Below, piece after piece: positions 2,565 through 14,160 of a stretch of 64,000 nucleotides of DNA. Below the pieces are notes generated by a model. The model searched no databases and was not told the DNA's origin. It saw only the letters and a list, made by a program, of their open reading frames with translations. Position 1 is the stretch's first letter, and every line of letters begins with the position of its first letter. Source of the stretch: Coleofasciculus chthonoplastes F2-STO-03 (lineage in GTDB: Bacteria; Cyanobacteriota; Cyanobacteriia; Cyanobacteriales; Coleofasciculaceae); NCBI GenBank assembly GCA_040222015.1, contig JAVJWO010000047.1:64001-128000 (forward strand). The letters are read 5' to 3'. Made by a program: the position numbers and the translations under genes.

Positions 2565-2761
2565 CGGATAAGTAGGTAGGGATAATAAAAGTTAACGGCA
2601 CAGATCGTCATTACTAAACCCACCCTGCCAAATCATCAATAATTATCATATTTAATTGATTCTGTCAAGAGGTGATTCCGATAAAGCTAGATGTTAGCGT
2701 AGTGGAGCTAGTCCCTCTTTTTCGGCTGAGTCATAGGATAGCAGTAGGATCAAGCAGAGTA

Positions 2762-5700
2762 ATGATAGAACAGGATCTCAAAGGCGATCGCTCCTTAGTT
2801 TTAGAAACAGCATGGCAGCGATATGCCCAGCTTAAAACCCAAGCTGCAATCACTTATAGACAATATTTGAGTCTTCGGGGCGGATCAATTTTGCTCAGTG
2901 CGATCGCCACATTCCTAGCGGTGGTTATCGCCAGTACAGATAGGCAACTCATCGCCGCCCCACCGGGACGACTATTAATCATTGGTTTAGTTTTAGTTCC
3001 GATTATCAATGTGATCATTTTGGCGATTAGTCGCAACCTGCAACAAGGACAGTATTGGCAAATCCTCAATGCTGGTGCTGAGGAAATTCGCAAAACGATC
3101 TATCTGTATCGGACATTGCTACCGGGACAAGAGAATCGTCATCAATGGTTGAATGAACGAGTTACAGCGATTCAACGCCAGGTATTTGATAGTATTGGCA
3201 GTGATTTAGTAATGCAACCCTATACCGGTAATCTTCCCCCGGATGAGAGGGGCGAATACCAAAATCATGATCCGGGTTTTACGGATTTACTGCCCCCAGA
3301 TTACTTGCATTATCGCCTAGAAGCGCAACGGCAACAATATACCCAAGAACTCGCCCAACTCAACACCACTCGCACTCGCTTACAAATTATCCTGTTCAGT
3401 TTGGCTGGATTGAGTGCATTGTTACCCGTTTTAGGGGTGAGTGTCGGTGTCTGGGTGGCGTTTACCCTGTTTTTGGCAACAGCATTCAGCCTGTGGTTAG
3501 AACTAGGACGAATCGACGATCGCGTGAATGCGAATAACCAGCTAATTGTAGCTCTCAACATGATTCGCGATCGCTGGCAAACGTTAACCGCCAAAGAGCA
3601 GACAGGCGAGGAATTTTTTCAGATCGTGCTGGCGACAGAAAATACACTCTGGAATTACTATAGTCAACCAATTTCCGAACGGCGTCAAATTGCCACACCC
3701 TTGCTGGAGCCGAGTGATGATTTACTCACAGAAGCGCTCAAAGAACCTGTTGTCGAACTCCCCGAAGAATCAAACAAAGTTGAAACCCTAGCCGTTGCCG
3801 CCCAAACCCCCAAAGAAACGGTAACGTTGGAGGTAGTCAAAAAAGTTGAAGAACCTCCTCAGGAGCCGCCGAAAAAGGGATTACCTCATGCCTTTGTGGT
3901 CATGCCCTTTGGACGAAAAAAAGGACCCGATGGGCTTTGGATTGACTTTAACAGCATTTATCGAAACTTAATTAAGCCAGCCTTAGAAGAGGCAGGATTT
4001 GAGTCATTTCGTGCCGATGAAGAAATGGTTAGCGGCGATATTTTGACGGATATGTTTCAGGAGCTATTGCTCGCTGACCTAGTTCTGGCAGATTTAAGCA
4101 TTGATAATGCCAACGTATTTTACGAGTTAGGCATTCGCCACGCCCTGCGTAAGCGCGGCTTGATTCACATCCAATGTGGTCGGGCTTACATGCCTTACGA
4201 CATTTTCAATGTGCGAACACTCCCCTATCACTGTGATGATAGCGGTTGTCCTGACCCAGAGTATTTACACAAAGACAAGCAGGCGATCGTGAAAATGGCG
4301 CGTGCCACCTGGGATTCGGACAAAAACCGCATTCATAGCCCAATTTTCAGTATTTTAACCGGACTGGATGAACCCGATCGCAAGTCCTTGCAAACCCCCC
4401 TGGCAACCGGATACTGGCAGGAATACAAAGAATGGCAAGAGCGGGTGGTGCTTGCCCAGCGACAAAAGCGGATTGGGGATGTCTTGTTATTAACCGAAGA
4501 GGTAAGTAATCCCCTAATTAAAGAAGAAGCCCTGGCGGAAGCAGGGAAAGCCCTAAAAAATCTAGGCAATCATGCCCTAGCGCTCAAAGAATATCGCCAA
4601 GGCTTGAAAATCAACTCCAAAAATTCTGAGTTTCGTAAAGAAGAAGCCTTTCACCTCAGCCGCTTAAAGCAATTTGATGAAGGGATTGTCAAATTAGAAT
4701 CATTGCTCCAGGATGAACCCAGAAATATAGATGCACTCTGTTACTTAGCTCGCATTTACAAAGAAATGTGGCGCAATGAATGGAAAGAAATCTCAGATCA
4801 GCCGGAGCGGTTGAGCGCTGCCTATGATGCCGCTCACTTACTCAAAAAAGCCGTTGATACCTATCTCAAAGCCTATCGGCTGAATCACAATCACTATTAT
4901 GCTGGGATTAATGCCCTAACCTTATTAGTCCTTCTCGATTATTTAGTCCAGCATTGTGACATCGATAGTGATGCCGAAGGAGAAGCCCTGCGGCAACAGT
5001 TGCCCAATCTCAAAGGGGCGGTTCAATTCTGCCTGGAAAGTGCAGTTAAGACCAATGAAAATGATACCTGGGCGTATGTTTCCTTAGGAGATTTAGCGGT
5101 ATTAGCAGCCGACCATCCGAAACAGGTAATGCGAGCCTATAAAAAGGCGCTAACGCTACTTTGGAACAATAAATTTGCCCTAGAAGCCACCCTAAATCAA
5201 CTGGAACTTTTGGCGGCGCTTTCTTTCCGCCCGGAATATGTACAAGCAGGACAAGTGGTGATCCAAGGGGAACTCGACCGACTGAACAATCAAACGGCAA
5301 TAACGGCGGATGAGAGCGAACCAGAACCCACACAAGTTATCCTCTTTTCCGGTCACATGATTGATAGTCCCACCAGGGAGCAACCGCGTTTTCCCGCCGC
5401 CATGGAAAATGAGGCGCGGCAAAAAATTGAGGAGACTCTGGATAAGTTAAAACCCAGTACCAATTGCTTGGCAATTGCTCCCGGTGCAGCCTGTGGCGGT
5501 GATATTTTGTTTATCGAAGCCTGCTTAAAGCGGAATATGAAGGTGGAGGTATTTCTGCCCTTTACCCCAGCTCAGTTTATTCTCGAATCCGTTAGTTTTG
5601 CTGGGGATAACTGGGTATCCCGTTTCTATACAATTCAGAATCACCCTAATGTGTCGTTTAATCTGCAACCGGAACGATTGGGAGACGTGCCGATAGGGGA

Positions 5701-5923
5701 TAATGCCTTCGAGCGCAATAATCGCTGGGCGTTGTATTCTACCTTAATGTATGGCATTGATCGCGTGCGACTGATTGTTCTGTGGAACGGTAAAGGCGGT
5801 GACGCGCCCGGAGGTACAGGTGACATGGTTCATCAGGTACGCCACTTAGGAGGCGTGGTTGAGCATATTGATACCACCAAATTTGACTACTGGAACACGA
5901 GGACGAAGGTATTAGCCAGTTAA
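2762..5923 (+). CDS. Multidomain conflict-system protein: two SLATT-like 2-TM modules, NDT/DRHyd (ASK-like) hydrolase domain, TPR (DUF4071/TPR-S-like) region, C-terminal SLOG-like domain
   Basis: Two TM pairs each followed by a W-containing helix (QYWQILNAGAEEIRK; LWLELGRID); AFVVMPFG...RADE...ADLVLADLSIDNANVFYELG; TPR helices; VILFSGHMID...GAACGGDILF...VFLPF...LWNGKGGDAPGGTGDMV. Confidence 0.75.
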   Translation: MIEQDLKGDRSLVLETAWQRYAQLKTQAAITYRQYLSLRGGSILLSAIATFLAVVIASTDRQLIAAPPGRLLIIGLVLVPIINVIILAISRNLQQGQYWQILNAGAEEIRKTIYLYRTLLPGQENRHQWLNERVTAIQRQVFDSIGSDLVMQPYTGNLPPDERGEYQNHDPGFTDLLPPDYLHYRLEAQRQQYTQELAQLNTTRTRLQIILFSLAGLSALLPVLGVSVGVWVAFTLFLATAFSLWLELGRIDDRVNANNQLIVALNMIRDRWQTLTAKEQTGEEFFQIVLATENTLWNYYSQPISERRQIATPLLEPSDDLLTEALKEPVVELPEESNKVETLAVAAQTPKETVTLEVVKKVEEPPQEPPKKGLPHAFVVMPFGRKKGPDGLWIDFNSIYRNLIKPALEEAGFESFRADEEMVSGDILTDMFQELLLADLVLADLSIDNANVFYELGIRHALRKRGLIHIQCGRAYMPYDIFNVRTLPYHCDDSGCPDPEYLHKDKQAIVKMARATWDSDKNRIHSPIFSILTGLDEPDRKSLQTPLATGYWQEYKEWQERVVLAQRQKRIGDVLLLTEEVSNPLIKEEALAEAGKALKNLGNHALALKEYRQGLKINSKNSEFRKEEAFHLSRLKQFDEGIVKLESLLQDEPRNIDALCYLARIYKEMWRNEWKEISDQPERLSAAYDAAHLLKKAVDTYLKAYRLNHNHYYAGINALTLLVLLDYLVQHCDIDSDAEGEALRQQLPNLKGAVQFCLESAVKTNENDTWAYVSLGDLAVLAADHPKQVMRAYKKALTLLWNNKFALEATLNQLELLAALSFRPEYVQAGQVVIQGELDRLNNQTAITADESEPEPTQVILFSGHMIDSPTREQPRFPAAMENEARQKIEETLDKLKPSTNCLAIAPGAACGGDILFIEACLKRNMKVEVFLPFTPAQFILESVSFAGDNWVSRFYTIQNHPNVSFNLQPERLGDVPIGDNAFERNNRWALYSTLMYGIDRVRLIVLWNGKGGDAPGGTGDMVHQVRHLGGVVEHIDTTKFDYWNTRTKVLAS

Positions 5924-5929
5924 ATAAAT

Positions 5930-5957
5930 GTAGAGACGCGCCATGGCGCGTCTCTAC
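5930..5957. repeat. REP-like palindrome GTAGAGACGCGCCATGGCGCGTCTCTAC
   Basis: Perfect palindrome; related copies near 11432, 31279, 43017 and 47186. Confidence 0.85.
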
Positions 5958-6067
5958 AGGCTATCCTTGTTGCTCTTAAGGATTGACGTGGCTTAATCTT
6001 AAGATCATTGTCCTCGATGACACGGTTAAACTGATGGTTAAAATATTCTCTCTCTAGAGTCAATTCA

Positions 6068-6826
6068 ATGAAAAACTCCTGTACTTTAACCTTTAACAAT
6101 AACCTCACCGCCCATGTTGTTCAAGTCCACAGTCCCACGGCGTTGGCGGCGGCGTTGCACCAGCTTGGTCTTGACCAACCCCGTCCTACCCTGGCGTTAG
6201 TGGGTGGAGCGAGTAAGATTAGTGAGTCTGACAAAAATGATTTGCGACGCATTTTTCTCGAAGTGATTGCGCCTCTGGCTGAACAACTGGGAGTGGTGGT
6301 TGTCGATGGGGGGACGGATGCGGGGATTATGCAATTTATAGGTCAAGCGCGGACAATGATTGGTGGGACATTCCCATTAATTGGTGTCGCCGCGATTGGT
6401 ACGGTTATGCTTCCTGGTGTTAAAAGCATGAATGCTGATGCGGCGATGCTAGAGCCAAATCACACCCACTTTGTCTTAGTTCCAGGCTGCAATTGGGGAG
6501 ATGAATCCCCCTGGTTATCTGAGATTGGTAGTCATTTAGCTAAGGGGTTACCTTCGGTGACGATTGTGGTGAATGGTGGCGAGATTACCTGGCAGGATGT
6601 GGCGCAAAGTGTGAAAGCTAAGCGACCTGCGATTATCCTAGCTGGGAGTGGACGAACGGCTGATAAATTGGCAGCCGCATTGCAGGGAGAGGTAACCGAT
6701 GAACGAGCCACAGATTTAGTGGCATCGGGACTTTTGCACGCTATTGATGTGAGTAAAGATGCAGCAGCACTGGCTCATCTGATTGCACAGATGCTTTCTC
6801 GACCTGCGGATGCGTTGCCCGAATAA
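6068..6826 (+). CDS. LSDAT-type SLOG domain protein (prokaryotic homologue of the TRPM N-terminal SLOG)
   Basis: LVGGA, VVDGGTDAGIM, PLIGVA, LEPNHTHFVLV, WGDE, VNGG and GSGRTAD motifs. Confidence 0.85.
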   Translation: MKNSCTLTFNNNLTAHVVQVHSPTALAAALHQLGLDQPRPTLALVGGASKISESDKNDLRRIFLEVIAPLAEQLGVVVVDGGTDAGIMQFIGQARTMIGGTFPLIGVAAIGTVMLPGVKSMNADAAMLEPNHTHFVLVPGCNWGDESPWLSEIGSHLAKGLPSVTIVVNGGEITWQDVAQSVKAKRPAIILAGSGRTADKLAAALQGEVTDERATDLVASGLLHAIDVSKDAAALAHLIAQMLSRPADALPE

Positions 6827-7091
6827 ATTGTCTCCAAATAAGGTGGGAAGAAGCGTTGACATTGATTCGGTTAAATCGGAGGTTTTAGAGTAAGTGTAAT
6901 TCGGAGATTGATGCTAATGTATTTTTTTTTATGACATAATAAAAATTAAGTTGATTGAGACGTATACCGCTGATCCTGTTTGAATGGTGCATAAAGCATT
7001 TGTTGCTAAAACTAAATTATTCGCTGGGTCATTTCATAATGTCTTAAGCCCACCCTTGTTGTATAGACTCTTGCAGATCAAGGCATAGAAC

Positions 7092-8489
7092 GTGGCAAAA
7101 AAGAACTCTTACAGTCAATATCTTAGGCAACACCTGAGTAACTTAATCGAGCAGACGGACTTGCCCACCTTGAAAAAGGACTTTATGAAAGCCCGGTGGT
7201 TGGATCAAGTGCTGTGGCTGGAAGGACGGGCAACCAAGGAACGCGATCGCCATCACTCTTTGAGGTTACTAACGATTATCGGCGGTGTTATCGTTCCCGC
7301 TCTGGTGGGATTCAAAAGCCCAAATCCTCAGATCCAGGAAATTGTCGGCTGGAGTGCGTTTGGGTTGAGTCAAGCCGTAGCCGTTTCCGCCGCCGTGGAA
7401 GAATTTTTCGCTCATGGGGAAAAATATAAGCAATTCCGCAATACAGCCGAAAATATGAAAATTGAGGGCTGGCAATTCCTGCAAATGGCTGGACAATACA
7501 GTCAGTTTGAATCCCACGACGATGCTTATGCTACGTTTGCCTATCACGTTGAGCAGTTGATTCAGAAAGACGTGCAGGGTTTCGTCGCTCAGTTTGAAGA
7601 AACAGAAAAGAACAGCAAGCAAAAGACAGAAGAAACAGTGGCTCAAAATTCGGCTCTAGCCCTGGAGAATCTCAACCAGCAAATGGAGTATCAGGAGCAA
7701 TTGCGGCGACTTGAAGCGGAAAAACGCCGCTGGCGAGAAGAGAAAGAGCGTTTGGAAAATGAGCGTTCAGCGTCCCTGGAAGATGCGGAAAACAATGGGG
7801 AAGAGGTCCAGACTACCCCGGTTACTCTCGAAGACTTGCCCCCGCTAGGTGCCGCCGCAATGGTTTGGTTTGAAGAAGACGAACCGGAAGAACCCAAAAA
7901 ACAAGCATCGATGAATGGTCAAGGAAATAGTGAGCCAGCCAAACCCGCCGTACCCCAACTGATTACACCCGAACAAGCGTCCAAAATAATGGATTGTCCC
8001 CTAGACGATAGCCAGAAATATTTACCGGGGGTATTGGAGGCGCTGCAAGACTATGACATTTTGGATAAGCAGGTGCTAATTGGTTTACTGGCAACGGTGC
8101 GAGTGGAAACCAACGGGTTTAAACCCATTAATGAGTTTGGTGGAACAAAATATTTTACTAAACATTATGAAGGACGCCGGGATTTAGGCAACGTGCATCC
8201 AGGAGATGGAGCGAAGTATCACGGTAGAGGCTACATTCAGATTACGGGGAGAGCCAATTATCGCACGTATGGGCAAAAATTGGGGGTGGATTTGGAGAAT
8301 AATCCTGAATTAGCTCTAGACCCGGAAATTTCTGCTAAGATACTAGCTTGTTACTTCAAAGATAGAGGAGTCGCCACTGCTGCAAAAGTGGGAGATTGGC
8401 GTAAAGTCAGAAAATTGGTGAATGGCGGCTATAACGGTTGGGATGTTTTTTCTAAGTATGTTGAGAAAGGTAAGGCGGTAATTGGTTAA
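7092..8489 (+). CDS. DUF4231/SLATT 2-TM domain, coiled coil, acidic linker, C-terminal GH19 lysozyme/chitinase-like domain
   Basis: RWLDQVLWLE...IIGGVIVPALV...RNTAENMKIEGWQF (DUF4231-like); VETNGF...INEFG and YHGRGYIQITGRANY...NPEL...VNGGYNG (GH19). Confidence 0.85.
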   Translation: MAKKNSYSQYLRQHLSNLIEQTDLPTLKKDFMKARWLDQVLWLEGRATKERDRHHSLRLLTIIGGVIVPALVGFKSPNPQIQEIVGWSAFGLSQAVAVSAAVEEFFAHGEKYKQFRNTAENMKIEGWQFLQMAGQYSQFESHDDAYATFAYHVEQLIQKDVQGFVAQFEETEKNSKQKTEETVAQNSALALENLNQQMEYQEQLRRLEAEKRRWREEKERLENERSASLEDAENNGEEVQTTPVTLEDLPPLGAAAMVWFEEDEPEEPKKQASMNGQGNSEPAKPAVPQLITPEQASKIMDCPLDDSQKYLPGVLEALQDYDILDKQVLIGLLATVRVETNGFKPINEFGGTKYFTKHYEGRRDLGNVHPGDGAKYHGRGYIQITGRANYRTYGQKLGVDLENNPELALDPEISAKILACYFKDRGVATAAKVGDWRKVRKLVNGGYNGWDVFSKYVEKGKAVIG

Positions 8490-8492
8490 GGT

Positions 8493-8693
8493 ATGGAACC
8501 CACAGAAGAAGTTTTTTTTCAAGTTCAGGAACTCAAGGAAGCGATTCAGGAACTTAAAGAGCAGATCAAAGCAATGCAATCGATAAATGAGGTGCAGCAA
8601 GAGTCAATTACGTCTTTAATTGCTCTGTCTCAGAAGCAAACGACGGTGATTGAGCAGCAAACCTCTGTGATTCAGCAATTGGTGAGTCAGTAA
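8493..8693 (+). CDS. Small coiled-coil protein
   Basis: Starts 3 nt after the upstream stop with AAGG in front; heptad Q/E-rich pattern. Confidence 0.6.
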   Translation: MEPTEEVFFQVQELKEAIQELKEQIKAMQSINEVQQESITSLIALSQKQTTVIEQQTSVIQQLVSQ

Positions 8694-8755: not shown

Positions 8756-11380
8756 TTAATGCAATACTCTGACCAGCTCCTTAATTTTGGCAGACTGCCG
8801 ATCCTTGAATTGATCAGGGAAACTTAATTCTAGCGCGATTTTATTCGGCGAAGAACTACTGCTATCCCCCGGAACCAGAATTTCTAATGAGAGAATTTGG
8901 GTTAAAAATCGCTCCCGTGATTGGCTAATGGCGTCTTGACTTAACAGCAAGCCCACTAAGGGTTTTTCTTGCTGCATTTTCTTTAAATTATCAGGCTTAA
9001 GTAATTTAGCATTCGATGTAATAGAATCATCGAGTTCTAATCGCAAACTTGTCGCCCCAATTGCGGTCACTGTTGCCAAATAAAAGTCTCCTTCCCAAAA
9101 CAATTGAGCTGAAGCTTGAACCCGTTTGCGGACTTTTACTGCCCCTTTATCCACCTTAAATTCCTGGAAAGCACGGAAAAGACCTGTAGCCAAAAATCCT
9201 AAAGACTGCAACGGTTTATCCACATATTCCCGTGTTTGTGAATACCATTCCTTCACGTCGGAATACGTCACTAAGGTTAAATTATCTCGCTGGGATTGGG
9301 TGACATTAATAAACTTAACCGCCAATTCCATTTGATGCTCATTGACCGACTTTGCCACCACAATCTGAGCCTCCATAATCACCCTTGCCCCATAATCACC
9401 CACCAATTCAACTTCGATTTCATCGGGTAAATTGGGTTGACCTTCGACTTCTAAGATCATTCGAGTTCCGGTTTCCGAAACATCCAGCGTCACGCCACTC
9501 CAACTTTTGTCATAGCTGTAAATTGTTGCCCCCAGCCGTCGCCGTAAGCGGTGGGCGGTGCGTTCTTGGGGTTGTTCAAAGGCAACCAGTAATGCTGCCA
9601 TTAACAGAGTTAAGTTAAAAACACACCACAAGGCGTTAACCAAAACTGCCTCTGTATCCTCTGGACGTAGGATCAACCAAAAAGGAACAGACGCTAATCC
9701 TAACACCACCAAACCGGTTATACTTAACAAACCCCGTACAGATTGCCAATCAAAATTGGAGAAGCTAAATTCCCGTTTAATCAGGGTCATGTCTTTGTCC
9801 GTGACGTTAAAAGAACCCAGATTGGGATTAATTAACGCCATTGTCGTCACATACCCCGCCTGGAATGCCATGACAAATTCAAAAATTTCATTCCAGAAAG
9901 AAAAGCGCACATGCTTATACGTAATGTAGTTGGTATTAAGGGATAAGAGAATATGAGGAAGTGCATAAGCCAAGGTTTCCAATCCCAAACCCTGAATCGG
10001 GTTGATTCTAAACAATAAGAATAGGGTTGGCGCGATCGCATAAATCAGTCGGGGATAACCGTAGAAGAAGTGAGATGTGGCGCTGAAATAACAAATCCGC
10101 TGGGGAATCGTCAAGTTTAGCTTACGGTTTAACACTGGATTTTCAATCCGCAAAATCTGCGCCATACCCCGCGCCCATCGGACTTGCTGACCCACATAAG
10201 AGGAAAAGTTCTCTGGGGCGAGACCCGCAATCATGATTTTATCGTAGTAAAATGACTTGTATCCCAGAGAATGCAATCGGAATGCAGTATGACAATCTTC
10301 AGTTACGGTTTCGGTAGCAATCCCACCCACTTGTAGGGCATATTCTTTGCGAATGACTGCCGCTGAACCACAGAAGAATGCCGCATTCCAAAAGTCATTT
10401 CCTTTTTGGAGGACTTTATAAAATAACTCATTACCAACTGGAATCCTGCCATCTGTACGCAGGTTCCGTTCAAAAGGATCGGGATTAAAAAACCAGTGGG
10501 GGGTTTGCACAAAAGCCAGTTTTGGATCAAAAAAGAAGCCCGCTACGTGTTTAAGGAAATCTCGGACAGGAATATGATCACAGTCAAGAATCATGACCAA
10601 ATCCCCTTTGGTGCGACGAAACGCGGTATTAATATTCCCCGCCTTGGCATGTTCGTTATTATCCCGCGTCATCATCGTGCAGCCAACTTCTTCGCACATT
10701 TTTCGTAATTTTTCGCGACGGGCTTTATATTTCTCGGCTCGACCATCATCTAAAACATAAACCTTTTTTTTGTCTTCCGGATAGTCAATTGCAATGGCTC
10801 CAATTGCCGTTTTGCGGACAATTTCGACATCTTCGTTATAGGTGGGAATATAGATATCGACCTTGGGCCACTGGTCTTGAGGATATGCCGACAAATCGAC
10901 CGGTTCACGGTCTTGAATATGCAAGGTTTGAAAATAAGCTAGGACTAGGGTGAGGATGGCATAGAGTTCAGCGATCAACAGCAATACACAAAATAAGCCA
11001 TTGATAAAGGCATCAAAGTTGAGCGTGTAGTTGAGGCGATAGTAAAGATATCGAGATGTGGTGACTAAACTTAACCACACTAAAAAGAGGTGATAGTACT
11101 CACTAATTTGTTGATCATTAACCCGGTTTTCCGCTCGCACAACCACTTGCCCGATCGCCAAAACAAAAAAAGCGACAACCCCTTGCTGCCAAACCTTGAG
11201 TGGGGTAATCACTAGGGGAATCGAAATCACCAGTAGAAATAGAACCAGCCATTTTAAATGACTGATACCAATGCGTTCCAATGTACGGTCAAAAAACCGA
11301 GGCAGAACATCAACTAGCCAGTCAGTGGCAAAAGGGCGTCGGGGACGAAATCGCTGGAATTTAGATGAAAATGAGGACAT
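8756..11380 (-). CDS. bcsA: Cellulose synthase catalytic subunit (GT2 plus PilZ)
   Basis: DDG, HAKAGN, DCDH, FFCGS, TED and QQVRW motifs; PilZ motifs RTAHR and DVSETG; multiple TM helices. Confidence 0.93.
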   Translation of the reverse strand: MSSFSSKFQRFRPRRPFATDWLVDVLPRFFDRTLERIGISHLKWLVLFLLVISIPLVITPLKVWQQGVVAFFVLAIGQVVVRAENRVNDQQISEYYHLFLVWLSLVTTSRYLYYRLNYTLNFDAFINGLFCVLLLIAELYAILTLVLAYFQTLHIQDREPVDLSAYPQDQWPKVDIYIPTYNEDVEIVRKTAIGAIAIDYPEDKKKVYVLDDGRAEKYKARREKLRKMCEEVGCTMMTRDNNEHAKAGNINTAFRRTKGDLVMILDCDHIPVRDFLKHVAGFFFDPKLAFVQTPHWFFNPDPFERNLRTDGRIPVGNELFYKVLQKGNDFWNAAFFCGSAAVIRKEYALQVGGIATETVTEDCHTAFRLHSLGYKSFYYDKIMIAGLAPENFSSYVGQQVRWARGMAQILRIENPVLNRKLNLTIPQRICYFSATSHFFYGYPRLIYAIAPTLFLLFRINPIQGLGLETLAYALPHILLSLNTNYITYKHVRFSFWNEIFEFVMAFQAGYVTTMALINPNLGSFNVTDKDMTLIKREFSFSNFDWQSVRGLLSITGLVVLGLASVPFWLILRPEDTEAVLVNALWCVFNLTLLMAALLVAFEQPQERTAHRLRRRLGATIYSYDKSWSGVTLDVSETGTRMILEVEGQPNLPDEIEVELVGDYGARVIMEAQIVVAKSVNEHQMELAVKFINVTQSQRDNLTLVTYSDVKEWYSQTREYVDKPLQSLGFLATGLFRAFQEFKVDKGAVKVRKRVQASAQLFWEGDFYLATVTAIGATSLRLELDDSITSNAKLLKPDNLKKMQQEKPLVGLLLSQDAISQSRERFLTQILSLEILVPGDSSSSSPNKIALELSFPDQFKDRQSAKIKELVRVLH

Positions 11381-11431
11381 ATTCAATGGTAAGGGTTAGT
11401 GAACAAGAAGGTAGAAGGCAGGGGGAGCAAT

Positions 11432-11582
11432 GTAGAGACGTTGCATGCAACGTCTGGGAGCTGGGGGAGCTGGGGGAGCAGAGGGAGCTGGGGGAGCTGG
11501 GGGAGCTGGGGAAGATTTTCCCAATGACAAATGACCAATGACCAATGACCAATGACAAATGACCAATGACAAATGACCAATA
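11432..11582. repeat. Composite intergenic repeat: REP hairpin, 9-bp (GGGGGAGCT)n array and 7-bp (CAATGAC/AAATGAC)n STRR
   Basis: Tandem arrays directly visible between bcsB and bcsA. Confidence 0.85.
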
Positions 11583-11583
11583 A

Positions 11584-14160
11584 CTAATGACTCTTTTGAT
11601 CACTAAGTCGCTTGAGATAGAACTGAGAAATCCCATAGAGCAAAAGCGCGATCGCGAAAATGCCAGCCGGTAAGAAAAACCAATTGTCTTGAATAAAGCG
11701 TGACACCTTACTCAACACTCCCGTATTTTCAATCCGACGAGTCGAAGGCGCACGTTCTAAGAATTCCAATGTGTAGGCATCCGGATCATAGCTAGCCGAA
11801 TCTTGCTGATTGCTGCTGATCAGTACCGTATCTTCCTGGAGTTGGAAGAAAAACGGATCTTTCTTAATCACCTCAAGCACTCGTGCTAACCCATTCGATG
11901 TCTGTGCCGTTAGCGCCAACAGCACCCGTTCCTTGTTATCAGGTGACATAACTTCCTTAATCATGCCTTCGTTATCCGGTAAGGCTTGAATGCTGCCTTG
12001 ATTCCATTGGCGAGAAAAAGCATTCCGTAAGCGGAAACCACTGCCATCAAACACCTCGGGGAAGGGAAATTGCTCTCTGGTACCAATTCCCACCAAATGG
12101 TGACTCTCGCGCACCTCAGCAGGCAACGTTGTCGTTGTATAGGCATCTAAATTAACTGAATCTGCCTTACTCAGTCGTCCCAGACGTTCGCTAATAGTTA
12201 ACAACGTCAGCAAATCCGTATTACTCGGAGAATCCGGCACAACAATCGCGGTTCTGGACAAATCCTGGGGTGCAGCAAAGGGATAACCTTCCTGGAACAG
12301 TTCTAAATCGGGGAGTTGTACCGATTGTTGGCGGTTCAGGTTGAAGCTAGTGTCTGCATGGAGAGTTCCCGTCAATTGTTGGTCAGTGACTTTACCACAT
12401 ACACCCGGTTCTCTGGGATTGAGGCGGAATGCCACTTCCACTTGGGAATCGGGTTTAATTAAGTGCGGCGGTAAATCTACCTTCAATCGTTTTCGCTTGG
12501 CACCGTCTTCTGAACTCAACCGCGCCCCACCGATAAACGTTCCATCCAGTAAGACTTCTACCGCAGAAGTCCGGGGATTAACTTGCGGACTATAGCTATA
12601 GTGCATAGTCATGGAACTTCCCCGCGCAAATTGGTCATCCGGCAAAGCGTGAAAATCAATCAGAATTGGGGGGGCGCCTGACCCGCGTACCGTGATGTCT
12701 TGAAATGGCTCCCCGTTGGCTTGGGTTTGAATTTCGCTGAGGGTAAAGGAATTTTTTTCCGGTAAATAACCGGGCCAATTCCGGAGTGATGGTGTGTCTA
12801 CCTCTTTGAGGCTATTCACCAATACAGCTTGACCTGTACCAAATTTACGGCTGTCAGGCTGGACTAAAAACTGGGCAGCTTTGGCAACACCGTCCGCCCC
12901 ATTGCCTGTCACCACTAAAACGGGAACTGCTCCATCTAAAGTCGTGGTCATCATTAAGATACCCACGTCACTGGGTAAAGCGACTTGGTTCCCATCTAAA
13001 ATTTGATTCCCACTGATGCTAAAGGGCAGATCCAAATCCGCTAATGCAGGTTGTTCGGCGGGTGTGCCAATGACGACCAACCGTTGACCCCACTCGACAT
13101 CCTCTAAATCGTTGATGATTTCCGTATCAATGGGACGGAATTCTGCCATTCTGCCTAATGCGGCTTGAAAGCGAGACGCGGCGGTTAACCAGGTGTCGTT
13201 AACCTTGGGCAAGAGATAAACAATGCGATTGGTATCTAAACTGAGGTCGTCAAAGAAAGGATAGGGATAGCGGCTAAAGTTGAGCGGAATCGGTTGGGGC
13301 TGATATTCAAACTGTAATTCTGAATCCGGTAGTACTTCTGTCCAAAGCGTGGGGTCACCCGGATCGCTACATTTTTCGTCATTGCTTTGGCGAGCGACAA
13401 TTGTCAGTTCGTTATAGTCCTGAATCAGTCGAGAGGGGACGTTGAAGAGGACGCTGCCGATTTCCGATTGTTGGCGGTTGAGGGGGACTGAACCCACACT
13501 TGTGCCATTAACTCGGACGGTGAGATTGGAGTCCTTGGCAATTAGGGCAGGTGAATGCTGGAACCGAATTAGGGCTTTCGCCCCTTGGATTTTCCAGCCC
13601 CGGGGACGGGTAAAGCCGAGTCGCGCTTCAGAATACACCCCTCGGAAGCGGAAGCGGTTCCCGACGATGGGGGAGCGATTGAATTGCAGGATGTATTCTT
13701 CTGTGGGTAAGGGTTCAGCCTCTGCCGTTTCTTCCTCGCGAGCAGGTGAGGAGGATGCAGGAGAACGACGTGCGGGTGCAGGTTCTTCGGGTTCAGTTGA
13801 TGCCGGTGCGGAACGAGTGGGCTGGCTCTGCGGCGGCGGTTGACTAGGTGCAGGCGTCGTTCGCTTGCGCGTTGGCGATGTGGATTTTTTCGGGGGAGAC
13901 GCCGGAGCGGGTTTGTAAACAGGTTCTTTCTGGGGCGTGGTGGGTAGGGTATATTCACGAATTAACTGATCTTCCTGCTCTTGCAGGCTACTGTCGCTTT
14001 GAGCGACGGCAAAGTTGGTCGTGATCACCAGCCCGACGACTAAAACGCTACACAGAAGCAACAATCCGAGTCGCGTTCCTGTAGATACACGGGTGGAGCG
14101 CTGACGTCCGCGATGGGTGGAAGGATTTGGAGATTGGGAGTGACGAAACAGGCGTTTCAT
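11584..14160 (-). CDS. bcsB: Cellulose synthase periplasmic co-polymerase subunit
   Basis: Signal peptide, Pro-rich linker, BcsB-like repeats (SNLTVRVNG, YPYPFFD, LPDLELFQEGYPF), C-terminal TM helix; adjacent to bcsA. Confidence 0.88.
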   Translation of the reverse strand: MKRLFRHSQSPNPSTHRGRQRSTRVSTGTRLGLLLLCSVLVVGLVITTNFAVAQSDSSLQEQEDQLIREYTLPTTPQKEPVYKPAPASPPKKSTSPTRKRTTPAPSQPPPQSQPTRSAPASTEPEEPAPARRSPASSSPAREEETAEAEPLPTEEYILQFNRSPIVGNRFRFRGVYSEARLGFTRPRGWKIQGAKALIRFQHSPALIAKDSNLTVRVNGTSVGSVPLNRQQSEIGSVLFNVPSRLIQDYNELTIVARQSNDEKCSDPGDPTLWTEVLPDSELQFEYQPQPIPLNFSRYPYPFFDDLSLDTNRIVYLLPKVNDTWLTAASRFQAALGRMAEFRPIDTEIINDLEDVEWGQRLVVIGTPAEQPALADLDLPFSISGNQILDGNQVALPSDVGILMMTTTLDGAVPVLVVTGNGADGVAKAAQFLVQPDSRKFGTGQAVLVNSLKEVDTPSLRNWPGYLPEKNSFTLSEIQTQANGEPFQDITVRGSGAPPILIDFHALPDDQFARGSSMTMHYSYSPQVNPRTSAVEVLLDGTFIGGARLSSEDGAKRKRLKVDLPPHLIKPDSQVEVAFRLNPREPGVCGKVTDQQLTGTLHADTSFNLNRQQSVQLPDLELFQEGYPFAAPQDLSRTAIVVPDSPSNTDLLTLLTISERLGRLSKADSVNLDAYTTTTLPAEVRESHHLVGIGTREQFPFPEVFDGSGFRLRNAFSRQWNQGSIQALPDNEGMIKEVMSPDNKERVLLALTAQTSNGLARVLEVIKKDPFFFQLQEDTVLISSNQQDSASYDPDAYTLEFLERAPSTRRIENTGVLSKVSRFIQDNWFFLPAGIFAIALLLYGISQFYLKRLSDQKSH

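What the first reader, a model, noticed from the sequence alone, without database searches (positions are those of the whole stretch)
2762..8693. Candidate undescribed nucleotide-signalling defence/suicide system: SLATT-NDT-TPR-SLOG, LSDAT SLOG and a SLATT-lysozyme fusion
Seen: four co-oriented genes between pdxA and bcsA that together encode three SLATT/DUF4231-like 2-TM modules, one NDT/DRHyd glycosidase-fold domain, a TPR array, two different SLOG domains and a GH19 domain. Established: SLOG domains bind or process nucleotides (ThsA SLOG in Thoeris senses a TIR-derived signal), SLATTs are predicted membrane effectors of conflict systems, and LSDAT plus DUF4231 is a recognised pairing related to the TRPM channel N-terminus. 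Inference: the TPR senses a trigger, the NDT or SLOG domain makes or reads a nucleotide messenger, the SLATT modules permeabilise the membrane, and GH19 degrades the wall. I do not recognise this full combination as a named system.
Basis: partly seen in the sequence, partly recalled or inferred. Interest (0 to 1): 0.88.

Follow-up and report, generated by a model that had tools for sequence, protein, structure and literature searches.

The report
Fused Thoeris-like effector plus SLATT-lysozyme module
Four neighbouring cyanobacterial genes encode membrane-pore, nucleotide-sensor and cell-wall-cutting domains that look like the killing half of a known bacterial anti-virus alarm system, wired together in a way not yet tested at the bench.

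Summary

P1 has two SLATT hairpins, a TIR/DRHyd-class domain, TPR-S and a YpsA-type SLOG. P2 is LSDAT_prok. P3 is DUF4231 fused to a GH19 endolysin domain. P4 is a small conserved coiled coil.

"Undescribed" is overstated. DRHyd+TPR-S is the architecture reported for the type VIII Thoeris effector ThsI, and SLATT is that of the type VII effector ThsH. Both are reported to respond to TIR-made cADPR. LSDAT next to DUF4231 is a recognised pairing.

Of 80 P1-family loci examined, 22 carry a TIR gene, 15 an LSDAT gene and 18 a DUF4231 gene. 46 carry none of these, and the full four-gene block occurs only in Coleofasciculus.

LSDAT and DUF4231 are adjacent in 21 of 31 cyanobacterial genomes that hold LSDAT, mostly without P1.

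DUF4231-lysozyme fusions (GH19 or GH24) recur across cyanobacteria. I found no description of them in the papers I could search.

Best reading: a TIR-less set of effectors and sensors of a Thoeris-like abortive-infection network. It is a new variant of a known kind. Function is inferred, not shown.

The parts
2762..5923 (+). P1, 1053 aa: SLATT(DUF4231-type)-SLATT_1-TIR/DRHyd-class domain-TPR-S-YpsA-type SLOG. Member of a family with at least 1968 relatives in Cyanobacteriota and Chloroflexota.
   Evidence: ORF. Start fits the homologues. Family size. Pfam hits.
2819..3106 (+). P1 aa about 20-115: first 2-TM SLATT module (DUF4231-type). Hydrophobic helices at 40-58 and 71-89.
   Evidence: No Pfam hit in the window's own protein. 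DUF4231 at aa 24-116 in 3 of 3 homologues scanned. Hydropathy. hhalign against the P3 DUF4231 was weak.
3302..3655 (+). P1 aa 181-298: second 2-TM module, SLATT_1.
   Evidence: Pfam E 3.9e-12. NCBIfam SLATT_1 at 37.7 bits, below its cut-off of 41. hhalign against the P3 DUF4231: probability 66.5%, E 5.4e-5.
3878..4351 (+). P1 aa about 373-530: TIR/DRHyd-class Rossmannoid domain. Motifs PHAFVVMPFG and NVFYELG. Glu455 is invariant.
   Evidence: Invariant columns in 22 sequences and in 16 sequences that include SLATT-less relatives. Fold matches. PADLOC TIR-effector model at E 8.3e-5. Atlas lead to NDT clusters at 0.88.
4520..5224 (+). P1 aa about 587-821: TPR array including TPR-S (605-722) and MAP3K_TRAF_bd-like repeats (646-821).
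5330..5896 (+). P1 aa about 857-1045: YpsA-type SLOG domain. Glycine motifs GAACGGD and PGGTGDM.
5929..5958 (.). Perfect 30-nt palindrome directly after the P1 stop. It belongs to a dispersed genome repeat, and a promoter-like site follows at 6017-6044.
   Evidence: for the hairpin and promoter-like site; 95 copies of the 24-nt core in the genome. RNA-library contigs break here.
6068..6826 (+). P2, 252 aa: LSDAT_prok SLOG domain protein.
   Evidence: Pfam E 7.9e-72. Alignment of 13 relatives with invariant GGA, DGGT and GGE motifs.
7092..8489 (+). P3, 465 aa: DUF4231 SLATT (aa 38-143; helices 56-74 and 84-102), a coiled-coil acidic linker (about 180-300), and a GH19 endolysin-type domain (aa 307-462) with Glu339 and Glu348.
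8493..8693 (+). P4, 66 aa: coiled-coil protein with no family. It starts 4 nt after the P3 stop and is conserved beside GH19-bearing P3 homologues.
   Evidence: tblastn hits in L002-L006, L034 and L062. Homologous 60-aa ORF in L062. No family. Atlas gave no usable lead.

Best explanation
The locus encodes the sensor and effector side of a Thoeris-like abortive-infection network, in which a TIR protein makes an NAD+-derived nucleotide signal. The locus has no TIR gene of its own.

P1 is a single-chain fusion of the two effector types reported to respond to cADPR: SLATT (as in ThsH) and DRHyd+TPR-S (as in ThsI). It also carries a YpsA-type SLOG.

Shown here:
- The domain architecture.
- Four predicted membrane helices with a lysine/arginine-rich N-terminus, which places the DRHyd-TPR-S-SLOG part in the cytoplasm.
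- An invariant Glu455 in the FYELG motif.
- Recurrent TIR neighbours in relatives, most of them TIR-WD40 proteins.

Inferred for P1: a messenger made by a TIR-WD40 protein binds TPR-S and/or the SLOG. P1 then oligomerises, its SLATT hairpins breach the membrane, and the DRHyd domain hydrolyses NAD+ or nucleotides. In this genome the TIR-WD40 would be encoded elsewhere. Less likely, the signal comes from the locus's own DRHyd or SLOG.

P2, P3 and P4 form a second sensor-effector pair.

Shown here:
- LSDAT is adjacent to this DUF4231 subfamily in 21 of 31 LSDAT-bearing genomes.
- In two loci LSDAT sits beside a patatin phospholipase and a TIR gene instead.
- The DUF4231 carries GH19, GH24 or C39+GH19 domains in different lineages.
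- The hairpin topology puts GH19 on the cytoplasmic side, and there is no signal peptide.

Inferred for P2-P4: LSDAT binds the nucleotide and opens the DUF4231 lesion. The tethered muramidase then reaches the murein through that lesion, like a holin and endolysin in one chain, and the cell lyses. The role of P4 is unknown.
For: Architecture.

Literature:
- ThsH (SLATT) and ThsI ('CMP hydrolase' plus the TPR predicted by Aravind's group) both arrest growth when cADPR is supplied. Rare operons hold both (section 8 of bioRxiv 10.64898/2025.12.03.692087).
- LSDAT, YspA, patatin and calcineurin accompany the 'core Tpr' (passages of bioRxiv 10.1101/2023.05.26.542521).

Neighbourhoods. Only the best 80 of 239 genome relatives were kept:
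- TIR proteins lie within 6 kb of P1 in 22 of 80 loci, in both cyanobacteria and Anaerolineales. 19 of the 22 belong to the cluster whose two scanned representatives are TIR-WD40. Most are immediately upstream and co-oriented.
- LSDAT is present in 15 of 80, DUF4231 in 18 of 80, and any of the three in 34 of 80.

Rosetta-stone evidence: SLATT-less P1 forms are followed by a separate DUF4231 gene in L045, L048 and L051, in G300 and G380 and in G002.

LSDAT module:
- 31 of 401 cyanobacterial genomes hold LSDAT, and 31 hold P3-type DUF4231. 28 hold both, and the two genes are adjacent in 21.
- LSDAT-patatin-TIR occurs in L096 and L098. TIR lies beside LSDAT in 5 of 19 LSDAT loci.

Lysozyme fusions:
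- 577 P3 relatives were found. Among the best 120 listed, DUF4231 is combined with GH19 or with GH24.
- The C-terminal domain matches endolysins in 1405 phage records, at up to 46% identity to Synechococcus phage endolysins.
- Both GH19 glutamates align with glutamates of PWe2 endolysin.

Possible signal source in this genome: 22 TIR_2 matches. Four loci are 69-74% identical over about 300-700 aa to the triple-TIR protein of locus L011. None of the four loci examined has a SLATT, SIR2 or Macro effector beside it.
Against: - No TIR or other known signal-making gene lies on the window's contig.
- P1 has none of the three partner genes in 46 of 80 loci, and in 20 of 43 loci with enough flank. It may therefore work alone.
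- LSDAT-DUF4231 occurs without P1 in most genomes. P1 was found in only 5 of 401 genomes, against 31 for LSDAT. In G080 P1 and LSDAT lie 186 kb apart.
- A strong hairpin repeat and a promoter-like site separate P1 from P2, so the four genes need not be one operon.
- The flanks look like housekeeping genes, not a defence island. LSDAT loci are also mostly flanked by housekeeping genes.
- PADLOC 2.0.0 gave only weak partial hits.
- The DRHyd call is not separable from TIR or CheY by fold.
- I could not compare P1 with the tested ThsI and ThsH sequences, because the preprint's supplements are closed.
- No ligand, toxicity or phage data exist for any of these four proteins.
- Coverage by RNA-library contigs is similar to the flanks and could be carried-over DNA.
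Confidence: 0.55

Rival explanations
1. The locus holds two independent systems that only sit side by side. P1 is a self-contained single-gene sensor-effector. P2-P3-P4 is a separate LSDAT-SLATT system. Each has its own trigger, and there is no shared messenger or cross-talk.
For: - P1 stands without LSDAT, DUF4231 or TIR in 46 of 80 loci.
- LSDAT-DUF4231 is present in 28 sampled genomes that lack P1 or have it elsewhere.
- A 13-bp-stem palindrome and a promoter-like site separate P1 from P2.
- RNA-library contigs join P2, P3 and the start of P4 (5963-8590), but none joins P1 to P2. The break falls at a 95-copy repeat, so this point is weak.
Against: - P1 lies beside LSDAT and/or P3-type DUF4231 in several genera: Coleofasciculus, Allocoleopsis, Waterburya, Caldora, Symploca, Microcystis, Pleurocapsa, a Xenococcaceae MAG and a Sericytochromatia MAG.
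- The gene order varies between these loci: upstream, downstream, with or without LSDAT. Chance would not give this in 5-8 Mb genomes.
- SLATT-less P1 forms are always followed by DUF4231 in the 6 cases seen.
- Both modules recur beside TIR genes.
Confidence: 0.25
2. The locus is not immunity. It is a developmental or physiological programmed-lysis or cell-wall remodelling device of filamentous, mat-forming bacteria, for example sacrificial cell death or filament breakage, driven by an endogenous nucleotide signal.
For: - The block keeps its chromosomal position after the pdxA-like ORF in 3 Coleofasciculus loci with enough upstream sequence (L002, L004, L006).
- The flanks are housekeeping genes.
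- The P1 family is concentrated in cyanobacteria, many of them filamentous, and in Chloroflexota.
- DUF4231-lysozyme fusions are common in Nostocales and Leptolyngbyaceae.
- A ~95-96%-identical relative is covered by contigs of four mat/hypersaline RNA libraries at depths like its neighbours.
Against: - Distribution is patchy: P1 in 5 of 401 genomes and LSDAT in 31 of 401.
- The genomic context differs between genera of the same family.
- TIR-WD40 neighbours and effector swapping (SLATT, patatin, lysozymes) are hallmarks of conflict systems.
- The closest tested relatives are anti-phage systems.
Confidence: 0.12
3. P3-P4 is a leftover prophage lysis cassette (holin, endolysin, accessory protein) that happens to lie beside conflict genes.
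For: The GH19 domain is endolysin-type: 1405 phage records match it, and phrog_181 matches at E 1.6e-48. P3 aa 28-164 matches phrog_7395, of unknown function, at E 1.1e-12.
Against: - The P3 DUF4231 part found only one weak match (22.6% identity, E 2e-4) in 50,697 phage records.
- It found no relative in the viral-contig scan.
- No other phage genes flank it.
- The DUF4231 partner is conserved next to LSDAT in 21 of 31 genomes.
Confidence: 0.03

Closest known systems
Type VIII Thoeris effector ThsI, also called the 'core Tpr' (BcTpr) architecture of Burroughs & Aravind 2020
   Same: A TIR/DRHyd-class ('CMP hydrolase'-like) domain sits directly before the TPR-S repeats. A TIR gene is adjacent in 22 of 80 relatives' loci. 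SLATT-less relatives at 38-44% identity exist in other lineages; named records include Nitrospira, Caldimonas, Burkholderiaceae and Nitrososphaeraceae.
   Different: P1 adds two N-terminal SLATT hairpins and a C-terminal YpsA-type SLOG. The window has no TIR gene on its contig. The reported type VIII systems are said to be most abundant in Pseudomonadota, whereas this family is cyanobacterial and Chloroflexota.
Type VII Thoeris effector ThsH (SLATT)
   Same: A SLATT 2-TM module acts as the predicted membrane-breaching effector of a TIR-derived signal. The preprint notes rare operons with both ThsH and ThsI. P1 is the fused form of that combination.
   Different: In P1 the SLATT modules are fused to the sensor and enzyme domains instead of standing alone. 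In P3 the SLATT is of the DUF4231 type and carries a muramidase.
Prokaryotic LSDAT-DUF4231 pair (Pfam LSDAT_prok; Burroughs et al. 2015, recalled and not read here)
   Same: P2 is a strong LSDAT_prok member directly upstream of a DUF4231 gene. The same holds in 21 of 31 LSDAT-bearing cyanobacterial genomes.
   Different: Here the DUF4231 protein carries a GH19 endolysin domain and is followed by P4. Most partners in the 401-genome sample are DUF4231-only frames of about 184-220 aa. The pair also sits beside a TPR-S protein.
Phage holin-endolysin lysis cassettes
   Same: A membrane-lesion protein works with a cytoplasmic, signal-less GH19 muramidase.
   Different: The two functions are in one polypeptide. 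The membrane part is a SLATT family essentially not found in phage records. Control is predicted to come from a nucleotide sensor, not from holin timing.
Type I Thoeris ThsA (SIR2-SLOG)

Membership tests
ThsI-like / core Tpr (type VIII Thoeris effector) | TPR-S repeat module (PF20308) | tested here: met
   E 4.5e-17, 62.9 bits against a cut-off of 27.6, aa 605-722.
ThsI-like / core Tpr (type VIII Thoeris effector) | DRHyd ('CMP hydrolase' / NDT-like) domain N-terminal to the TPR | tested here: inconclusive
ThsI-like / core Tpr (type VIII Thoeris effector) | TIR-domain gene in the same operon | tested here: not met
   None of the 22 TIR_2 matches in the genome lies on contig C47. The feature is met in 22 of 80 relatives' loci.
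ThsI-like / core Tpr (type VIII Thoeris effector) | Activation by cADPR and protection against phage | not testable with these tools
   This needs bench work. It is reported only for other proteins.
ThsI-like / core Tpr (type VIII Thoeris effector) | Sequence homology to the experimentally tested ThsI/BcTpr proteins | not tested
SLATT effectors (ThsH-like) | 2-TM SLATT domain | tested here: met
   SLATT_1 in P1 at E 3.9e-12 and DUF4231 in P3 at E 6.9e-28. Hydrophobic hairpins. The first P1 hairpin is supported only through homologues.
LSDAT-DUF4231 pair | LSDAT_prok protein adjacent to a DUF4231 protein | tested here: met
   P2 at E 7.9e-72. P3 starts 266 nt downstream. The pairing recurs in 21 of 31 genomes.
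SLOG superfamily, YpsA clade | SLOG Rossmannoid fold with glycine-rich loops | tested here: met
GH19 endolysins | Two catalytic glutamates in the GH19 core | tested here: met
   Glu339 and Glu348 align with glutamates of PWe2 endolysin 9ms7 in the printed alignment. That these two are the catalytic pair is recalled knowledge of GH19.
Phage lysis cassette | Prophage context, with the membrane partner found in phages | tested here: not met
   One weak phage match for the DUF4231 part, none in viral contigs, and no phage genes in the flanks.
Named systems of PADLOC-DB 2.0.0 | Full-length match to a system protein model | tested here: not met
   Only partial weak hits: TIR effector 8.3e-5, TPR 7.5e-4, JetC 0.007, PDC-M09A 0.0032. 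P2 gave none. The library dates from 2023 and predates Thoeris VII/VIII.

The most novel reading that the evidence does not exclude
DUF4231-lysozyme proteins are single-chain 'holin plus endolysin' suicide effectors under second-messenger control. An LSDAT nucleotide sensor opens the SLATT lesion. The muramidase, tethered on the cytoplasmic side by a long acidic linker, then threads through the lesion to dissolve the wall. This gives regulated autolysis of an infected cell, or of a sacrificial cell in a filament. The LSDAT + 2-TM pair would then be a free-standing bacterial counterpart of nucleotide gating by the TRPM channel N-terminus. P1 would show that cADPR-type signalling can drive nucleotide depletion, membrane breach and wall lysis from a single locus.
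Probability: 0.3. Interest if true: 0.75.

Novelty: new variant of a known kind. Interest (0 to 1): 0.55.

Why it matters
If the reading is right, this locus extends Thoeris-type TIR/cADPR immunity into cyanobacteria and Chloroflexota. The effector there would merge the two cADPR-responsive effector types and add a SLOG.

It would also give a testable function to the widespread but untested LSDAT-DUF4231 pair, present in 31 of 401 sampled cyanobacterial genomes.

The recurrent fusion of a SLATT module to three different wall-hydrolase arrangements (GH19, GH24, C39+GH19) suggests a lysis effector type that I did not find described in the searchable literature. It would bear on how mat- and bloom-forming cyanobacteria die under phage attack, and on the bacterial ancestry of the TRPM channel's nucleotide-sensing N-terminus.

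Tried and rejected
- Pfam on the isolated P1 segments (aa 1-170, 370-570, 840-1053) gave nothing useful.
- phmmer of P1, and a 22-sequence profile of it, against PDB sequences found only generic TPR proteins. No ASK1, NDT or SLOG chain appeared.
- Complex prediction for P2 with P3 aa 1-180 was never run. The queue was full, and then the tool was declared unavailable. No statement on binding is made.
- Burroughs et al. 2015 (PMC4678834) and Burroughs & Aravind 2020 (PMC7685563, DOI 10.1128/JB.00365-20) are not held. What I say of them is recalled, or taken from papers that cite them.
- Literature searches for a described SLATT-lysozyme or LSDAT defence system:
  - Ten papers hold both 'SLATT' and 'lysozyme' (nine listed), none in title or abstract.
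  - I read passages of only one of them, PMC7159879, and it does not describe the fusion.
  - LSDAT appears in a bacterial-defence context only in the BcTir/Tpr preprint.
- The search of earlier findings returned nothing.
- Atlas search for P4 gave no usable lead. PHROGs gave none for P2 or P4.
- A contig in two of the four RNA libraries (X3, X5) joins 2571 to 5928, skipping P1. Its side is only 24 nt and it ends in the dispersed palindrome, so I treat it as a repeat artefact and not as a P1-less strain.
- The RNA-library contigs cannot show transcription or operon structure.
- I did not use the one search of protein representatives.

Full report
**What is there.** I did not check either flanking name against a family library.

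- P1: 2762-5923.
- P2: 6068-6826.
- P3: 7092-8489, GTG start.
- P4: 8493-8693.

The starts of P1, P2 and P3 agree with aligned homologues. GC content across the block (0.44-0.50) does not stand out from the flanks.

**Domains of P1.**

- Pfam gives SLATT_1 (aa 181-298, E 3.9e-12), TPR-S (605-722, E 4.5e-17) and MAP3K_TRAF_bd (646-821).
- The first 170 residues have no hit of their own. Three of three homologues scanned show DUF4231 at aa 24-116, above the Pfam cut-off. Hydropathy shows a hairpin at 40-58 and 71-89, and a second one around 205-250.
- That makes four membrane helices. The N-terminus is rich in lysine and arginine, so the rest of the protein should be cytoplasmic. This is an inference from the positive-inside rule.
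- The middle domain (about 373-530) is the most conserved part of the family. PHAFVVMPFG, SGDI and DLSIDNANVFYELG are invariant or nearly so in 22 sequences. Glu455 is invariant in 16 of 16 sequences that include SLATT-less relatives.
- Fold alone therefore places the middle domain in the TIR/DRHyd class and no finer. The language-model atlas points to 'nucleoside 2-deoxyribosyltransferase' clusters (0.88) and, lower, to a MAP3K5 cluster carrying DRHyd-ASK (0.79). These are leads only.

**P2, P3, P4.**

- P2 is a textbook LSDAT_prok protein (E 7.9e-72).
- P3 is DUF4231 (E 6.9e-28), then a 120-residue coiled-coil acidic linker, then a GH19 endolysin-type domain.
  - It matches solved PWe2 endolysin at E 5e-21, with both glutamates aligned (Glu339, Glu348).
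  - It matches phrog_181 endolysin at E 1.6e-48.
  - It matches 1405 phage records, at up to 46% identity to Synechococcus phage endolysins.
- The two P3 helices (56-74, 84-102) form a hairpin behind a basic N-terminus, and there is no signal peptide. GH19 should therefore start on the cytoplasmic side, away from its substrate.
- P4 has no family. It is conserved next to GH19-bearing P3 homologues in seven loci of at least three genera.

**Is the combination real or chance?** P1 belongs to a large family: at least 1968 proteins at E <= 0.001 among the 7999 candidates scored. A scan of one genome per species found 239 relatives, and I examined the best 80 loci. Within 6 kb of P1:

- A TIR-domain protein lies in 22 of 80 loci. 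19 of the 22 belong to one cluster whose two scanned representatives are TIR-WD40. Most are directly upstream and co-oriented. They occur in cyanobacteria and in Anaerolineales alike.
- An LSDAT gene lies in 15 of 80 loci.
- A separate DUF4231 gene lies in 18 of 80 loci.
- Any of the three lies in 34 of 80 loci.
- Among the 43 loci with at least 3 kb on both sides, the counts are 16, 9, 11 and 23. Twenty of these show P1 with none of the three.

The complete four-gene order is seen only in the five Coleofasciculus loci L002-L006. Other arrangements mix the same parts:

- TIR-WD40, P1, LSDAT, DUF4231 (L009).
- P1, LSDAT, DUF4231, pentapeptide protein, then triple-TIR-WD40 (L011).
- A five-TIR protein, Peptidase_M15-like, DUF4231-GH19, P4, P1, without LSDAT (L034, L062).
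- Triple-TIR-WD40, SLATT-less P1, DUF4231 (L045, L048, L051).

For one search I scanned 32 of 40 picked cluster representatives. The other recurrent neighbours look like lineage synteny (histidine kinase, T2SSE, peptidases). The exceptions are a cNMP-binding protein upstream of P1 in 12 loci and a calcineurin-like phosphoesterase in 5.

**A sample of 401 cyanobacterial genomes gives the background.**

- LSDAT_prok occurs in 31 genomes.
- The P3-type DUF4231 occurs in 31.
- The DRHyd-TPR-S-SLOG part of P1 occurs in only 5.
- 28 genomes hold both LSDAT and this DUF4231, and the two genes are adjacent in 21. This comes from my comparison of the coordinates.
- Of the five P1 genomes, two have LSDAT adjacent (G000, G002). 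One has it 186 kb away (G080). Two have no LSDAT but have DUF4231 directly after a short P1 (G300, G380).

I fetched 20 regions around these genes: 19 around LSDAT genes and one around a DUF4231-GH19 gene with no LSDAT nearby (L104). I scanned 44 of 86 selected neighbours. I left out the TIR proteins themselves and the outer genes.

- Most flanks are housekeeping genes.
- TIR proteins sit beside LSDAT in 5 of the 19 LSDAT loci.
- In the two LSDAT genomes that lack this DUF4231 (L096, L098), the neighbour is a patatin phospholipase followed by a TIR protein.
- One locus (L099) has TIR, DUF4231-C39-GH19, DUF4231 and LSDAT.

So LSDAT behaves as a constant sensor with swappable membrane or wall effectors. 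That is the pattern expected of a conflict system.

**The lysozyme fusion.** P3 has 577 relatives at E <= 0.001 among 8000 scored. In the best 120 listed, DUF4231 is combined with Glyco_hydro_19 (Coleofasciculus, Leptolyngbyaceae, Leptothoe and others) or with Phage_lysozyme GH24 (Nostoc, Anabaena, Calothrix). I confirmed this on P0334 and P0313. Independent fusion of different muramidases to the same 2-TM module argues that pore and wall hydrolase act together.

The DUF4231 part is essentially not found in phage collections. It has one weak match in 50,697 phage records and none in the viral-contig scan. That argues against a prophage lysis remnant.

**Comparison with what is known.** A 2025 preprint (bioRxiv 10.64898/2025.12.03.692087; passages, section 8 read) reports the following:

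- Type VII Thoeris uses a SLATT effector (ThsH).
- Type VIII uses an effector annotated 'CMP hydrolase' plus the TPR that Aravind and colleagues had predicted to take part in TIR signalling (ThsI).
- Both systems are reported to use canonical cADPR made by their TIR proteins.
- Rare operons encode both effectors.

A 2023 preprint on BcTir/Tpr (passages) summarises Burroughs & Aravind 2020. There a 'core Tpr' is accompanied by TIR, YspA (SLOG), patatin, LSDAT or calcineurin. Papers from Aravind's group that I could read in passages place TIR, DRHyd and SLOG in one Rossmannoid clade, and they predict SLATT to be a pore regulated by nucleotide or ADPR derivatives.

P1 is thus a fused variant of these described parts, and P2-P3 is the recognised LSDAT-DUF4231 pair. 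What I did not find described is the following:

- The SLATT-SLATT-DRHyd-TPR-S-SLOG single chain as such.
- The DUF4231-lysozyme fusions.
- The small P4 partner.
- Any experiment on LSDAT proteins in bacteria.

These absences rest on searches. The limits are that the two key Burroughs papers are not held and that the preprints' supplements are closed. PADLOC 2.0.0 names nothing here, but it predates these Thoeris types.

**Where would the signal come from?** The window's contig has no TIR match, while the genome has 22 TIR_2 matches in about a dozen frames. Three loci (C10, C18, C176) are 69-74% identical over about 650-700 residues to the triple-TIR protein encoded in the P1-LSDAT-DUF4231 locus L011. 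A fourth (C30) is about 72% identical over about 300 residues. Two loci on C72 are 44-48% identical to the single-TIR-WD40 proteins next to P1 in L009 and L038.

Scanning 22 of 27 ORFs around four of these genes found CHAT and DUF928 or housekeeping neighbours. None of them had a SLATT, SIR2 or Macro effector. Supply of the signal in trans is therefore possible, but it is unproven.

**Operon structure and expression.**

- A perfect 30-nt palindrome follows the P1 stop, with a promoter-like site before P2. The palindrome is a dispersed repeat, with 95 copies of its 24-nt core in the genome.
- P3 and P4 are 4 nt apart.
- Contigs from four metatranscriptome libraries (hypersaline or marine) cover a ~95-96%-identical relative. 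One contig spans all of P1 (2687-5938). Another spans P2, P3 and the start of P4 (5963-8590). Depths are like those of the flanking genes.
- The contigs break at the repeat, and DNA carry-over cannot be excluded. This shows presence in those libraries and no more.

**Context.** In three other genera of the same family, the pdxA-like and bcsA-like genes lie on different contigs. In G002 the P1-LSDAT-DUF4231 block lies on a third contig. The block is therefore accessory and changes context between genera, while it is stable within Coleofasciculus.

**Verdict.** The locus is best read as a TIR-less sensor and effector set of a Thoeris-like nucleotide-signalling network, and as a new variant of a known kind. 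Its most interesting untested element is a nucleotide-gated SLATT-muramidase lysis effector. All functional steps are inferred.

Noticed in passing
window 5929-5958: A perfect 30-nt palindrome lies right after the P1 stop. Its 24-nt core occurs 95 times in the genome, so it is a dispersed REP-like repeat. RNA-library contigs end at it.
   Followed up: partly
window 11361-11636 (- strand ORFs): Short ORFs upstream of the bcsA-like gene read as reiterated peptide units (VIGHWSF...; PQLPQL/PSSPSS). This suggests a tandem DNA repeat in the intergenic region.
   Followed up: no
L104:8340-9584; L062:6506-7732; also L006 and L034 (cluster 23): A Peptidase_M15_3-type protein of about 410 aa sits next to DUF4231-GH19 genes. 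It is a second murein hydrolase. The Pfam hit is from L104. Three loci form the cluster seen, and the L062 ORF was read. The window itself has none.
   Followed up: partly
L096:8993-13540; L098:8985-13594: The gene order is LSDAT, patatin-like phospholipase, then an 827-aa TIR protein. These two LSDAT genomes lack the P3-type DUF4231, so this looks like an effector swap.
   Followed up: partly
L099:2400-11887: The order is a TIR protein of 1491 aa, DUF4231-Peptidase_C39_2-GH19 (732 aa), a second DUF4231 protein (502 aa), then LSDAT. This is a richer version of the module.
   Followed up: partly
L050:374-871; L060:2341-2850, and 10 more Anaerolineales loci: A cNMP-binding protein of about 166 aa lies directly upstream of P1 homologues in 12 loci. 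A calcineurin-like phosphoesterase is nearby in 5 loci.
   Followed up: no
G000 C72:31000-48000, C18:60000-76000, C30:65000-79000 (L082, L083, L085): The genome's own TIR-WD40 genes are flanked by large CHAT (caspase-like) proteins and, at two of the three loci (L082, L085), by DUF928 proteins. In L094 a TIR-DUF928 pair sits directly before LSDAT-DUF4231.
   Followed up: no
L050-L061, L066-L081 (Anaerolineales P1 homologues): The match to P1 spans 3.5-4.3 kb instead of 3.2 kb, and the N-terminal third is too divergent for tblastn at high score. The proteins may have insertions or a different N-terminal module.
   Followed up: no
L086:6816-8390; L090:11219-12811: An NAD(P)H-hydrate repair enzyme (YjeF_N + Carb_kinase) lies next to LSDAT in 2 of 19 LSDAT loci. 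This may be chance or an NAD-related link.
   Followed up: no
window 2571 / 5928: Contigs in 2 of 4 RNA libraries join 2571 to 5928, skipping all of P1. The flank is only 24 nt and lies inside the dispersed palindrome, so this is probably a repeat artefact.
   Followed up: no
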